Origin: Harriotta raleighana
Lineage: Eukaryota
Assembly (NCBI GenBank): GCA_050575255.1
Contig: JBNZDD010013686.1
Span: forward strand, 2,756,293-2,820,292
Length of the DNA stretch: 64,000 nucleotides
Reading direction: 5' to 3'
The position numbers are program-made. How positions within the stretch are numbered: position 1 is the first letter of the stretch; each line of letters begins with the position of its first letter. Below, in pieces: positions 1-12,888 of the stretch.

Positions 1-3000
1 AACATCAATTTTTATTCCATTATTTGCTATTTGATCTCAGTTTTTTATAACCCACCACATTCTCTTTTCTAAACTCGTATTGGTATCCATAGATTTAAAC
101 AATATTATGGTAACCAATTTAGGTATAAAATACTTGTAATGTAACTCAGGTATTCTATGTTCAGGTTACCCTTTGCATGTTAGATTGTGAAGGAATCATA
201 ATATTTGGGGGAATTTTCAACCTGTTCTGTTTCAGCTGTCTTGTTTTTTTCATTTTTACCTGTGAAATATTGAAATCCAATTGATAATAGTGCCTAACCA
301 CATTGTTAAGACTTTCAAAACACTTCACAGGATATACCATGAAGTATGACTGTATTTTCCATAAAGCAATGTCCCACAAACAGTCATGGAGGGACTGACC
401 AATTTTATTTGTAGTGTGTAGGCCAAACACTGGGTATAAGCTCATTTTTCTATGTACTCAGCAGCAGAACCCTTGTCCTCTGTGACTTGGGTCTGCTCCT
501 ACATATCTTGCTAACAAGCCAGCCTGGGTGATCTGTAATCAGCAGTGCCTGTCTTGGGAGTACTTTAGATTCACTTGGTTCTGAAACTGCTAAGACTATC
601 ATATATGCGATTGACAACATTATTGGGATGTATCCCATAATATACAACAACAAGATTGCATTTATAGAGCACGTTTCACGTCGGAAGGACGTCCCAAGGC
701 GCTGGACAGTTGGTTTAAATATAAGCAATTGCCAGCAACTTCTACCATATTGGAGAAAAATATTCATGGTTATAGGATGATAGAAGTCTTTATTTGTGAT
801 ATTGTTTTACTCCGATCAATGATTATACATATTTAAGGCACCTGATAGATATATCAAATCATTCTTTAAACGATGATTTGCTGATAAACTAATAATTCCA
901 TGCTGTGTACTGATTTATCACAATACATAATTTTTTAACTTCTGTTCCAATTAATGAATAAATAGTTCCTTATTTCCTAGAATTAAAGCTATCACTGTCT
1001 CCACTGGAATCCATAAACACATCGTTAGTGGTTGTATACATATAATCGGGAGTCATGTCACTACTTAATTCATTAACAGAATAATCACTAAGAGCTGAAT
1101 AGAATCTAGTTCTGTTTGCATCTTCCTCGGGACGCACACTTTCTGAGGAAGTCGGATAACTTCCTTCATTAGTTTCTCTGCTAGTTTCACTTTCGTCTGA
1201 AGAACTGCCAGTTGCAGAACCAGTGCCTTCAAGTTCATCAGAAGTTATATTGACTGATAGTGGTCTGGTTCTTGATGTTGATGCAGGATAAAGAATTAAA
1301 GGTTGCTCTTGAAATGTTACCTCTCTTTCATCATCAAAACTATTTTTTCTTGGTTTAAAATTTGATGTGGAAATGGGTGATAGTGGTACCAATTGCTGTT
1401 CATGGGGTTCTCTGTAAATGAAAGATTGAGATATGGGCGACTGCGCTATAAAGTTACTGTTATATAAAAAAGTATCTGTTAAGGCATCCCCAGCTGTAGA
1501 AATGTTTCCTCTTAATCCATTCTGGGATTGTGGACTCACATGAGGGCTTACATTAACCGATAATGGCATTATCACTGGTAGTGATGTAGAATGAGCATCC
1601 ATATGATCTCTTTCCTCTTGTGCCAAATTCAGTCCAGTATCACTATGAAATGGTAAAGCTAAATGAGAAAATTGTTCATAGGAGGATGGTTGAATCAGAT
1701 GTTGTGAGAGTGAGCGAGATGATGAAGAGAATGCAGGGGGTGGAACAATTGGTAGTGGACTACCAATTAAATCCTCAGGTCTTGGGATCAACTCATTTTG
1801 AGATGATTTAATAAGCGATCTTGATGATCTTCTCTTTTTCGATTGACTTGGGTAATCCTCTTTTTTCCCTTTCGGTAATTTTGAATGGAATGAGGCTGAC
1901 GGAAACTTATGCTTTGATGAGAGAGGGAGCATTCGGTGTTTGGATGGTGAATAACTGGATGCCGATCGTCGCAACTGTGGTGATGAGTAGGATATTCGAT
2001 GTTTGGATGGGGATTGCGTTGGCTGTGATGTTTGATGTCTAGAAGTTGAATGGGTGGGTGTTGATCGTGGTTCATGCCTTGATGTTGAATGAATGGAGGA
2101 TGATAATGGATGTGATGAGAAAGAGGGTATTTGGCGTCTGGAGTGTGAATGAGCGGAAGATGAACGTGGTGGATGTGATGTGAAAGAGGGTGTTCGATGT
2201 TTAGATGTTGAATGAACAGATGGTAATCGTGTTTGATGTGTGGGTGGTGACTGAAGAGCTGTTGATAGATGTGACAACTTGGGCATTTCTGGAACAGAAT
2301 GTGAATAAGGGGATTGTGGTTGCTGTGGCATAGTAGACAGTTGTGGTGTGGAATGTGAATGAATGGATTGTGATGGCAATTCATGCACTGAATGAATGGA
2401 GGGTAACTGTGAATAGTGTGACAAGGGCATTGGAGGCATAACATGTGAATGAATGGATCGTGATTGAGATTGGTGTATTGTGGGCATTTGTGGCATAGAA
2501 TGCGAATGCATGGATTGTGGTTCAAATGATAATCTGGGATGTTTGTGCCTTGAGTGGGAATGAACAGATGGTGAGGGTAGATGTTCAAATGAGAATATAG
2601 GTGATACCTGCCTGGATTGAGAAGGAATGGATGATGCAGGTTGATGTGAAGATAATGAGTGACTATGTGATGAAAATGTTGGGGATGAAACAGCTGGCTG
2701 TGGGATTGTGGGAGATCGGTCATCTGAAGTATAGGCTGATCTTTCTCTCCAAACCGCAGAATGTGAACCAGCCACATCTGGATGACTTCTTGAGAATTGC
2801 CCAGGTGCCAGTGGAGTGAATAGATGAGTACTTCTACCGTCACCTTTAAATGGTAAACTAACTGATTTCGATCTGGCTCTTTGTGTTGACAGAAGATGTG
2901 ATGGGCTCTTTGATGGTGGTTGGGTGAATGATAATGATATGGGCACACGTCTTTTGTACCTTGCTGAATGACTTGATGGTGAAATATGGAGTAGACTTGC

Positions 3001-12000: not shown

Positions 12001-12888
12001 GATGTTTCAAGACGCTATCTCAAATGCAAATGCAAGGATTGTTATCATTATTTTCAGTATTGATAAGTAATACAGGGAAATAAAGACTTTGCACTAGTCT
12101 CTCACCACCCAGTGAATCAGCAACGTCTTCTTCAAATTCCACTATATCCTCATCCCCATCATAAAACTCAGGAGAAGATCTTGGGAATCCTGGAAAGAAT
12201 TAAATCGATGACAGGCGGTTGGTTAAGTTGGGTTATCTACATATTGGACAAATGAGTTTTTGTTTGTACACAAGACGTTTCTTAGAAGTGGAGGGCATCT
12301 CTCTCTCTCTCTATCTCTCTCTCAATCAATCTCTCAATCAATCTCTCTCTATCAATCTCTCCATCAATCTCTNAATCAATCTCTCAATCAATCTCTCCAT
12401 CAATCTCTCCCATCAATCTCTATCTGTATATCAAAANTCTCTCAATCAATCTCTCAATCAATCTCTCTCTATCAATCTCTCCATCAATCTCTCCCATCAA
12501 TCTCTATCTGTATATCAAAATACAACACGACCTACTTCTCCATGGGGAACCCACAAGAGGCTCGGCATTGGCTCTGTCGTGAATGTGTCCCGTGAACAGC
12601 AGCAGAAGGGTGGCAAGAAGCGGGTTACAAGTCATGGAAAATCATGGGAACAAGCCACAGCGGGCAGCCAGCTGGCGTGGGGGCCGCTATTGGGAAATGA
12701 GGAGCCTTGGGTGGTGGTGGGGGTGGGGGGGGTCACCAGCCCTTTGCCCCCAAAGCATCTCCTGCCCGAAGCGCCACTAGGCAACACCATTGTGACGCCC
12801 AGTCACCGAGGCTATTGTCCATCACTGACCTCACACTGATTCCCGTGTGCAGCCTTATCTCAACACACTCAGCTGCAATACACACACA

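What the first reader, a model, noticed from the sequence alone, without database searches (positions are those of the whole stretch)
970..12635. Unrecognised 1354-aa type-I membrane protein with a ~980-aa disordered cytoplasmic tail
Seen: 12 exons join through canonical, phase-matched splice sites into one ORF. Its order is signal peptide, acidic helical-looking ectodomain (sequons NKT, NMS, NRT; only 2 mature ectodomain Cys), TM helix at aa ~351-375, RAKEKEKC, then a low-complexity tail. The ORF track shows only the last exon and fragments of others. I recognise no Ig, LRR, EGF, kinase or other domain. A tail about three times longer than the ectodomain with no catalytic domain is unusual. 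Inference: a lineage-restricted or fast-evolving membrane scaffold, possibly a sperm/acrosomal protein.
Basis: partly seen in the sequence, partly recalled or inferred. Interest (0 to 1): 0.8.

Follow-up and report, generated by a model that had tools for sequence, protein, structure and literature searches.

The report
Unrecognised single-pass membrane protein gene
A reverse-strand gene appears to encode a membrane-spanning protein with a small acidic outer part and a very long floppy inner tail; it matched no known family in the searches open to me, and its small exons still need RNA evidence.

Summary
On the minus strand, 12 exons (12635 to 970) join through GT/AG sites in matching phases. 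The last exon is a 992-codon open frame; 500 dinucleotide shuffles reached at most 245. The small exons are less secure. Four acceptors are weak on my crude matrix, and open AG..GT candidates are common in control tiles. However, exons 2, 3, 6 and 7 are four of the seven most Asp/Glu-dense of 2158 frames in the window.

The architecture holds: signal-like N-terminus, acidic ectodomain (net -27, 2 Cys, 3 sequons), one strong TM helix, basic inner flank, and a 972-aa Ser/Pro/His-rich tail. AlphaFold2 finds no folded domain in the tail (0 of 972 residues at pLDDT 70 or more).

Exon-by-exon Pfam, PDB and ESM Atlas searches found nothing. Novelty, lineage restriction and sperm expression therefore stay untested. 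Most likely it is a real, ordinary-kind type I membrane protein with a disordered docking tail.

The parts
12536..12635 (-). Exon 1: start codon at 12635-12633 and a signal-like segment (first 24 codons, 12635-12564). Donor GTAGGT, ends in phase 1.
   Evidence: An in-frame stop lies two codons upstream of the ATG. This is the nearer and better of only 2 candidates (ATG, hydrophobic stretch, phase-1 donor) in 12200-22000.
12106..12189 (-). Exon 2, phase 1-1, very acidic.
   Evidence: Acceptor 9.9 and donor 8.8. It has 10 Asp/Glu in 20 aa, the joint top of 2158 frames.
10699..10794 (-). Exon 3, phase 1-1. Amphipathic helix, NKT sequon, first ectodomain Cys.
   Evidence: Helical moment 0.70, z 3.7 against shuffles. 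8 Asp/Glu in 20 aa.
10082..10183 (-). Exon 4, phase 1-1. NMS sequon, amphipathic helix.
   Evidence: Best acceptor of the gene, 12.1. Helical moment z 2.07.
9868..9939 (-). Exon 5, phase 1-1. Second ectodomain Cys.
   Evidence: acceptor 7.9, donor 8.9. An alternative in-phase acceptor lies at 9975.
9408..9539 (-). Exon 6, phase 1-1, Glu/Lys-rich.
   Evidence: AlphaFold2 on this exon alone gives helices at residues 16-22 and 27-40, with block pLDDT 77-92 in the second half. 8 Asp/Glu in 20 aa.
8557..8673 (-). Exon 7, phase 1-1.
   Evidence: Acceptor -5.0 at 8673 or 1.5 at 8739; donor 2.6. 8 Asp/Glu in 20 aa.
7687..7776 (-). Exon 8, phase 1-1. NRT sequon.
   Evidence: Acceptor 0.6, donor 7.8. 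One of the least-supported exons.
6201..6281 (-). Exon 9, phase 1-1.
   Evidence: Acceptor 2.7, donor 11.1.
5577..5612 (-). Exon 10, a 36-nt micro-exon, phase 1-1.
   Evidence: Acceptor 5.8, donor 6.8. Too short for any search.
4973..5141 (-). Exon 11: outer juxtamembrane stretch, TM helix (5067-4993) and the basic RAKEKE start of the tail. Ends in phase 2.
   Evidence: Acceptor 8.9, donor 7.6 (GTAAGT). Kyte-Doolittle 19-residue maximum 3.02.
970..3889 (-). Exon 12: the whole cytoplasmic tail (972 aa plus stop).
- Basic juxtamembrane helix, about 3840-3766.
- His/Ser-rich degenerate repeat zone, about 2691-1909, including a 63-nt unit x 2.1 at 2107-2240.
- Acidic C-terminal quarter, about 1728-973.
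789..794 (-). First AATAAA after the stop, 175 nt downstream. Others lie at 560 and 953 nt.

Best explanation
This is a real protein-coding gene on the minus strand for a single-pass type I membrane protein of about 1330-1355 aa.

Shown or directly read.
- A signal-like N-terminus.
- An acidic ectodomain of about 300 aa. Its first part (exons 3-6) carries amphipathic helices and the only two Cys. Its second part (exons 7-10) looks like an acidic, flexible stalk.
- One strong TM helix with a basic inner flank.
- A 972-aa Ser/Pro/His/Arg-rich tail without any folded domain.

Inferred mechanism.
- The small helical head, probably pinned by one disulfide, is the binding or self-association module. 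It may bind cations.
- The tail works as a membrane-tethered, phosphorylation-regulated docking platform. It has 34 Ser/Thr-Pro sites, 10 PxxP, 4 YxxPhi and one RVxF-like motif.
- The basic helix next to the membrane would lie on acidic lipids.
- The acidic Ser-rich C-terminus with a YxxPhi would drive sorting between the surface and endosomes or the Golgi.

Because every internal ectodomain exon is phase 1-1, dropping or lengthening any one of them changes the length but not the architecture.
For: - Last exon: a 992-codon open frame against a shuffle maximum of 245 in 500.
- All 11 introns are GT..AG with matching phases, and no split codon is a stop.
- At the strict threshold, 6 of the 12 open candidates in the gene's introns and exons are phase 1-1, and they are model exons. 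Control tiles gave 1/17 to 11/57.
- Exons 2, 3, 6 and 7 are 4 of the 7 frames with 8 or more Asp/Glu per 20 aa, among 2158.
- TM hydropathy is 3.02. The first 60 tail residues have net charge +11, and the residues just outside the TM are acidic.
- The ectodomain has net charge -27, 2 Cys and 3 sequons.
- Amphipathic helices in E3 (z 3.7) and E4 (z 2.07). There is a confident helix in E6.
- The tail has mean pLDDT 32.9, 0 of 972 residues at 70 or more, and one low-confidence helix at residues 17-41. It lies below the charge-hydropathy boundary, 0.410 against 0.426.
- GC3 is similar in the small exons (0.31) and the tail (0.26).
- Polyadenylation signals lie 175, 560 and 953 nt after the stop.
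- The exon-1 candidate is the nearer and better of only 2 in about 9.8 kb upstream.
Against: - There is no transcript evidence and no cross-species evidence of any kind.
- The acceptors of E6-E9 are weak (3.2, -5.0, 0.6, 2.7) and the E7 donor scores 2.6.
- Open AG..GT candidates are plentiful in control tiles, so a phase-matched chain can partly be built by choice.
- The signal-like segment has no basic residue before its 9-residue hydrophobic core. It also has a long, charged stretch before the only (-3,-1)-compliant cut site. The start codon has T at -3.
- The pooled ectodomain also falls on the disordered side of the charge-hydropathy boundary, 0.404 against 0.452. A compact fold is therefore not shown. 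E5-E9 show no amphipathic signal.
- The short motifs in the tail are of low specificity, and none was tested.
Confidence: 0.6

Rival explanations
1. The architecture is right, but the protein is a diverged orthologue of an already characterised or annotated vertebrate family. The apparent novelty would then be an artefact of searching 23-55-aa exon pieces and a low-complexity tail in a few libraries.
For: - Exon pieces of 23-55 aa have little power in Pfam or phmmer.
- The ESM Atlas search covers only clusters of 50 or more members.
- The joined ectodomain was never searched, and the large protein sets were closed.
Against: - No Pfam family came near its cut-off. The best was E 0.026 at 15.5 bits against a cut-off of 29.7.
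- 134 locus frames gave only one chance-level hit.
- The 972-aa tail, 73% of the protein, scored at most 0.76 in the Atlas. It had 0 PDB matches at E up to 1.
Confidence: 0.3
2. Only the large 3' exon is truly coding. It would encode a soluble, disordered Ser/Pro/His-rich protein that starts at the in-frame ATG near 3900 or is fed by other exons. The upstream 'exons' would be chance open frames.
For: - An in-frame Met lies 17 codons into the 992-codon frame.
- Chance candidates are common.
- E6-E9 have weak acceptors.
Against: - E11 has strong sites (8.9 and 7.6), a textbook TM helix and the right phase to enter exon 12.
- E2-E5 have strong sites.
- E2, E3, E6 and E7 are extreme Asp/Glu outliers, collinear on the same strand.
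Confidence: 0.12
3. The topology is reversed. The Ser/Thr/Pro-rich C-terminal 972 aa would be an extracellular mucin-like domain, and the acidic N-terminal part would be cytoplasmic.
For: S+T+P make up 39.5% of the tail. It has 12 N-x-S/T sequons and only 6 Cys.
Against: - The C-terminal flank of the TM is basic (net +11 in the first 60 aa) and the outer flank is acidic.
- The N-terminus is signal-like.
- R+K+H make up 16.6% and Ser far exceeds Thr, which is not mucin-like (the mucin rule is recalled).
Confidence: 0.04
4. It is not a gene. The long frame would be a by-product of C/A/T-rich low-complexity DNA, or a decaying pseudogene.
For: - A second frame of the same strand is open for 411 codons across 1788-3023.
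- G makes up only 14% of the coding strand there.
Against: - Dinucleotide-preserving shuffles never exceeded 245 codons in 500 tries, against 992 observed. The other two frames carry 33 and 72 stops.
- Only one short tandem repeat lies inside the exon.
Confidence: 0.03

Closest known systems
FAM171 family (FAM171A1/astroprincin, FAM171A2, FAM171B)
   Same: The layout is the same. They are type I proteins with an ectodomain of 282-321 residues, one TM helix, a larger intracellular part of 452-566 residues, few or no disulfides and a handful of N-glycan sites. This comes from passages of bioRxiv 10.1101/2025.09.18.675241.
   Different: - The FAM171 ectodomain is two beta-sandwich domains that form trimers (same passages). 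Here the ectodomain is acidic with amphipathic helices.
- No Pfam family was hit by any exon.
- The tail here is nearly twice as long.
STIM proteins (recalled; the review PMC7795233 was seen only in the search listing)
   Same: Both are single-pass proteins with a signal peptide. Both have a helical, acidic, cation-binding luminal head with two Cys, and a long Ser/Pro-rich C-terminal region.
   Different: - STIM's cytosolic part begins with long coiled coils. Here AlphaFold2 sees only one short, low-confidence helix in 972 aa.
- No SAM or EF-hand family was hit.
- An EF-hand-like Asp spacing across the E2/E3 junction fails two key positions. The pattern is recalled, I checked it by eye, and I did not rely on it.
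Acrosomal type I membrane proteins such as SPACA1 and equatorin
   Same: Both are type I proteins with a small glycosylated ectodomain and no classical domains.
   Different: Those proteins are about 300 aa with short tails (recalled). No family hit was found here. Expression cannot be read from the DNA.
CCDC47/calumin-type proteins with an acidic luminal domain (recalled; PMC7505659 was seen only in the search listing)
   Same: Both have a signal peptide, an acidic luminal or outer segment, one TM helix and a larger cytosolic part.
   Different: The cytosolic part of CCDC47 is a folded coiled-coil domain with its own Pfam family (recalled). No such hit was found and no fold was predicted here.

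Membership tests
Single-pass type I membrane protein (topological class) | Cleavable N-terminal signal sequence | tested here: inconclusive
   There is a 9-residue hydrophobic core and one site that obeys the (-3,-1) rule, after residue 24. There is no basic residue before the core, and the stretch before the cut site is long and charged. No signal-peptide predictor was on hand. It is the better of only two first-exon candidates upstream.
Single-pass type I membrane protein (topological class) | Exactly one TM helix | tested here: met
   The Kyte-Doolittle 19-residue maximum is 3.02 in E11. The tail maximum is 0.77 and E1 reaches 1.17.
Single-pass type I membrane protein (topological class) | Positive-inside charge on the C-terminal flank | tested here: met
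   The first 60 tail residues have net charge +11. The residues just before the helix are acidic.
FAM171 | Sequence match to the family, and a beta-sandwich ectodomain | tested here: not met
   Pfam gave no such hit in any exon piece or locus frame. The ectodomain exons carry amphipathic helices. Caveat: only exon pieces were searched.
STIM | EF-hand/SAM luminal domain and cytosolic coiled coils | tested here: not met
   No EF-hand or SAM hit. The tail model has no helices beyond residues 17-41.
Membrane mucins | Extracellular Ser/Thr/Pro-rich tandem-repeat domain | tested here: not met
   The Ser/Pro-rich part lies on the positive-inside side of the TM. Only one 2.1-copy repeat was found in it. 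Self-BLAST found no internal repeat at E up to 1.
Acrosomal membrane proteins (SPACA1, equatorin) | Family match and testis-specific expression | not testable with these tools
   No Pfam hit by exon. No expression data were reachable.

The most novel reading that the evidence does not exclude
This would be a lineage-restricted family of single-pass proteins, with no relatives outside its clade. The small disulfide-pinned helical head would be a new extracellular binding fold. The nearly 1000-aa His/Ser-rich tail would be a metal- or phosphorylation-tuned multivalent platform, or would be released by intramembrane cleavage and sent to the nucleus through its KKRR-type basic clusters.
Probability: 0.2. 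Interest if true: 0.5.

Novelty: new member of a known kind. Interest (0 to 1): 0.3.

Why it matters
If the model is right, the locus adds an unannotated-looking membrane protein with an unusually long, fully disordered cytoplasmic tail (about 980 aa behind a 300-aa ectodomain). This layout is rare among characterised type I proteins. Such proteins are candidates for membrane-anchored signalling or sorting platforms. In practice the finding shows how a gene made of one giant exon and ten tiny symmetric exons is missed by ORF tracks. It does not by itself open a long-standing question. Its novelty rests on searches I could not run.

Tried and rejected
Family and structure searches that found nothing.
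- Pfam on 10 exon pieces at E up to 1 gave four sub-threshold hits of 12-16 bits (FeoB_associated, bZIP_1, DUF4890, Con-6). I reject all four as chance. E1 and the 11-aa E10 were not sent as pieces.
- Pfam on 134 of the 135 open frames of 1-13400 gave only Pox_D5 at E 0.006, about what 134 queries give by chance. The frames were minus strand 30 aa or more and plus strand 45 aa or more. They include the frames that hold E1, E10 and the long form of E7. I left out the last-exon frame because it was already searched.
- ESM Atlas on the tail gave a best score of 0.76 ('treacle'-named cluster), below the lead level. Tail residues 700-972 gave no usable hit.
- PDB phmmer found 0 matches for the tail at E up to 1. 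For E11, E6, E4, E3 and E7 the best E-values were 0.74, 2.2, 0.1, 4.9 and 0.2. For E11, E6, E4 and E3 the hits were mostly designed helical proteins; for E7 they were complement decay-accelerating factor and an antifreeze-protein repeat. I reject all of them.

Paralogues and neighbours.
- tblastn of the 12 exon peptides against the window found only self matches below E 0.06, so no paralogue lies in the window.
- Looking for neighbour genes for synteny, I sent 141 of the 167 frames of 62 aa or more beyond 12700. I left out 4 microsatellite frames, later covered, and 22 of the shortest. Only RVT_1 appeared, in 2 frames. No synteny clue resulted.

Internal repeats. Self-BLAST of the tail found none at E up to 1.

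Literature.
- A five-term search for similar architectures listed 20 of 53 papers, none relevant by title or abstract start.
- 'calumin/acidic/luminal' returned listings only.
- The FAM171 search led to one preprint, of which I read passages.

Tools not used.
- Fold search: the tail model is low-confidence and the E6 model is a bare helix, so matches would be meaningless.
- Complex prediction: no binding claim is made.
- Genome contigs, phage, plasmid and E. coli collections, and the PHROGs, PADLOC and NCBIfam libraries: these are prokaryote or phage resources and this is a spliced eukaryotic gene.

Left unchecked.
- The search for homologous proteins, the search of protein representatives, metagenome contigs and viral contigs, all closed.
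- Supplements of papers, which were closed and not needed.

I do not take the window for human. Rfam found no 7SL/Alu-type match and two well-preserved tRNA-like SINE heads.
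Full report
What is there.
- The gene reads on the minus strand. The stop-to-stop listing shows one 992-codon frame (970-3948) and only fragments upstream.
- I read 3900-12700 on the minus strand and located the ends by script. This gives 12 exons: 12635-12536, 12189-12106, 10794-10699, 10183-10082, 9939-9868, 9539-9408, 8673-8557, 7776-7687, 6281-6201, 5612-5577, 5141-4973 and 3889-970.
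- All 11 introns are GT..AG. Exons 2-10 are phase 1-1. Exon 11 ends in phase 2, and the acceptor at 3889 takes it up. No split codon is a stop.
- The total is 3999 nt, which is 1332 aa. Neither acceptor is good (1.5 and -5.0), so I cannot decide between them.
- Because all internal exons are symmetric, such choices change the length but not the frame or the layout.

Is it more than chance?
- The last exon certainly is: 992 codons against a mean of 126, SD 28 and maximum 245 in 500 dinucleotide-preserving shuffles. The other two frames carry 33 and 72 stops.
- The small exons are less secure. On it, E2-E5, E10, E11 and E12 have decent sites. E6-E9 have weak acceptors (3.2, -5.0, 0.6, 2.7) and the E7 donor scores 2.6.
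- Control tiles of equal size elsewhere in the window hold 9-57 open AG..GT candidates and 1-11 in phase 1-1. A phase-matched chain is therefore partly a product of choosing.
- Two things speak for the exons. At the strict threshold, 6 of the 12 open candidates within the gene are phase 1-1 and belong to the model. And among 2158 open frames of 20 aa or more in all six frames of the window, only 7 have 8 or more Asp/Glu in 20 residues. Four of those 7 are exons 2, 3, 6 and 7, collinear on this strand. The other three are two in transposon-rich stretches (18357-18416 and 60181-60240, plus strand) and one microsatellite frame.
- Exon 1 is the nearer and better of only two candidates (ATG, hydrophobic stretch, phase-1 donor) in the 9.8 kb upstream of exon 2.
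- GC3 is alike in the small exons and the tail, 0.31 and 0.26.

The protein, piece by piece.
- All statements below come from single exons and pooled counts.
- Exon 1 has a 9-residue hydrophobic core and one cut site that obeys the (-3,-1) rule, after residue 24. It lacks a basic residue before the core, and the start codon context is weak.
- The mature ectodomain has about 303 residues: Glu 16.2%, Lys 9.9%, net charge -27, two Cys (in E3 and E5) and three sequons (NKT, NMS, NRT).
- Amphipathic-helix signals are strong in E3 (moment 0.70, z 3.7) and present in E4 (z 2.07). They are absent in E5-E9.
- AlphaFold2 on exon 6 alone gives helices at residues 16-22 and 27-40, confident only in the second half.
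- Pooled, the ectodomain lies on the disordered side of the charge-hydropathy line, 0.404 against 0.452. I therefore read it as a small helical head (E3-E6) on an acidic flexible stalk (E7-E10), not as a 300-aa globular domain.
- Exon 11 holds a 25-residue TM helix with hydropathy 3.02, followed by RAKEKE.
- The tail exon (972 aa) is Ser 21.3%, Pro 10.9%, Arg 7.0% and His 6.0%. It is net +34 overall, basic near the membrane (+11 in the first 60 residues) and acidic in the last quarter.
- AlphaFold2 gives the tail a mean pLDDT of 32.9, no residue at 70 or more, and a single low-confidence helix at residues 17-41.
- The middle of the tail carries five HSHS motifs and one 63-nt unit x 2.1. Self-BLAST sees no clean repeats.
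- Simple pattern counts in the tail: 34 Ser/Thr-Pro, 10 PxxP, 4 YxxPhi, 1 RVxF-like, no NPxY and no dileucine. These are low-specificity leads.

What it is not.
- No Pfam family comes near its cut-off in any exon piece or in 134 frames of the locus.
- The PDB holds nothing like the tail. For five of the exons it held only sub-threshold chance matches, mostly to designed helical proteins.
- The ESM Atlas gives 0.76 at best for the tail and nothing for its C-terminal 273 residues.
- There is no paralogue in the window.
- There is no recognisable neighbour gene. Only reverse-transcriptase fragments turned up, in 2 of 141 frames.

How it most likely works (inference).
- The N-terminal hydrophobic segment and the positive-inside flank both put the acidic part outside the cell, or in the lumen, and the tail in the cytoplasm.
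- The head is a small helical module, probably held by its one possible disulfide. It could bind a partner, itself or cations.
- The tail is a long disordered platform for kinases and adaptor proteins. A lipid-facing basic helix sits next to the membrane, and an acidic Ser-rich end with a YxxPhi suits endocytic or Golgi sorting.
- None of this was tested.

Comparison with known families.
- The nearest layout is FAM171: a type I protein with a 282-321-residue ectodomain and a 452-566-residue intracellular part (passages of bioRxiv 10.1101/2025.09.18.675241). Its ectodomain is a beta-sandwich trimer and no family match exists here, so this is a likeness of plan, not membership.
- STIM, CCDC47 and the acrosomal proteins SPACA1 and equatorin are recalled comparisons. 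Their defining domains were not found.

Novelty and verdict.
The architecture is likely right (0.6).
- The claims of lineage restriction and of sperm expression could not be tested, for two reasons.
- I file it as a new member of a known kind, a single-pass membrane protein with a long disordered tail. Interest is 0.3.
- I do not take the window for human.

Noticed in passing
window 10853-10950 and 11059-11156 (intron 2): Two 98-nt copies that are 100% identical and 206 nt apart. Each abuts a single N (10951, 11058). This looks like an assembly-level duplication just upstream of exon 3. It is not coding.
   Followed up: partly
window 12298-12521 (intron 1): Intron 1 is mostly a 12-nt microsatellite (about 16 copies; an 84-nt higher-order unit x 2.7) with two single Ns at 12373 and 12437.
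   Followed up: partly
window 4279-4342 (-) and 45830-45901 (+): Two tRNA-like matches (39.7 and 32.9 bits) that look like heads of tRNA-derived SINEs. The first sits in intron 11.
   Followed up: no
window 4046-4179, 5455-5547, 7145-7243, 23138-23271, 24807-24899, 46029-46143, 51565-51698: An interspersed repeat family of about 90-130 nt, on both strands. It is probably the SINE body or tail, and three copies lie in introns of this gene.
   Followed up: no
window 644-718, 17943-18017, 36656-36730, 39842-39916, 62032-62106, 62244-62318, 62419-62493: A seven-copy 75-nt repeat family at 61-95% identity to the reference copy.
   Followed up: no
window 13338-63710: Reverse-transcriptase (RVT_1) matches in 2 of 141 long open frames. 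The call does not say which frames. By eye, 59438-59806 (+) reads like a reverse-transcriptase start and 18042-18656 (-) like a LINE 3' part. No cellular gene was recognised in the remaining 50 kb.
   Followed up: partly
window 12500-12999: A local GC peak (0.548) lies over and just upstream of the start codon, with a low CpG observed/expected ratio (0.39). This is promoter-like in position but is not a CpG island.
   Followed up: no
window 1788-3023 (-), second frame of exon 12: A 411-codon open frame in another frame of the same strand. The low G content of the coding strand explains it, so it is not a second gene.
   Followed up: partly
window 35906-35979 and 36010-36083: Two 74-nt copies at 99% identity and 104 nt apart, next to single Ns at 35871 and 35980. 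This may be another assembly-level duplication.
   Followed up: no
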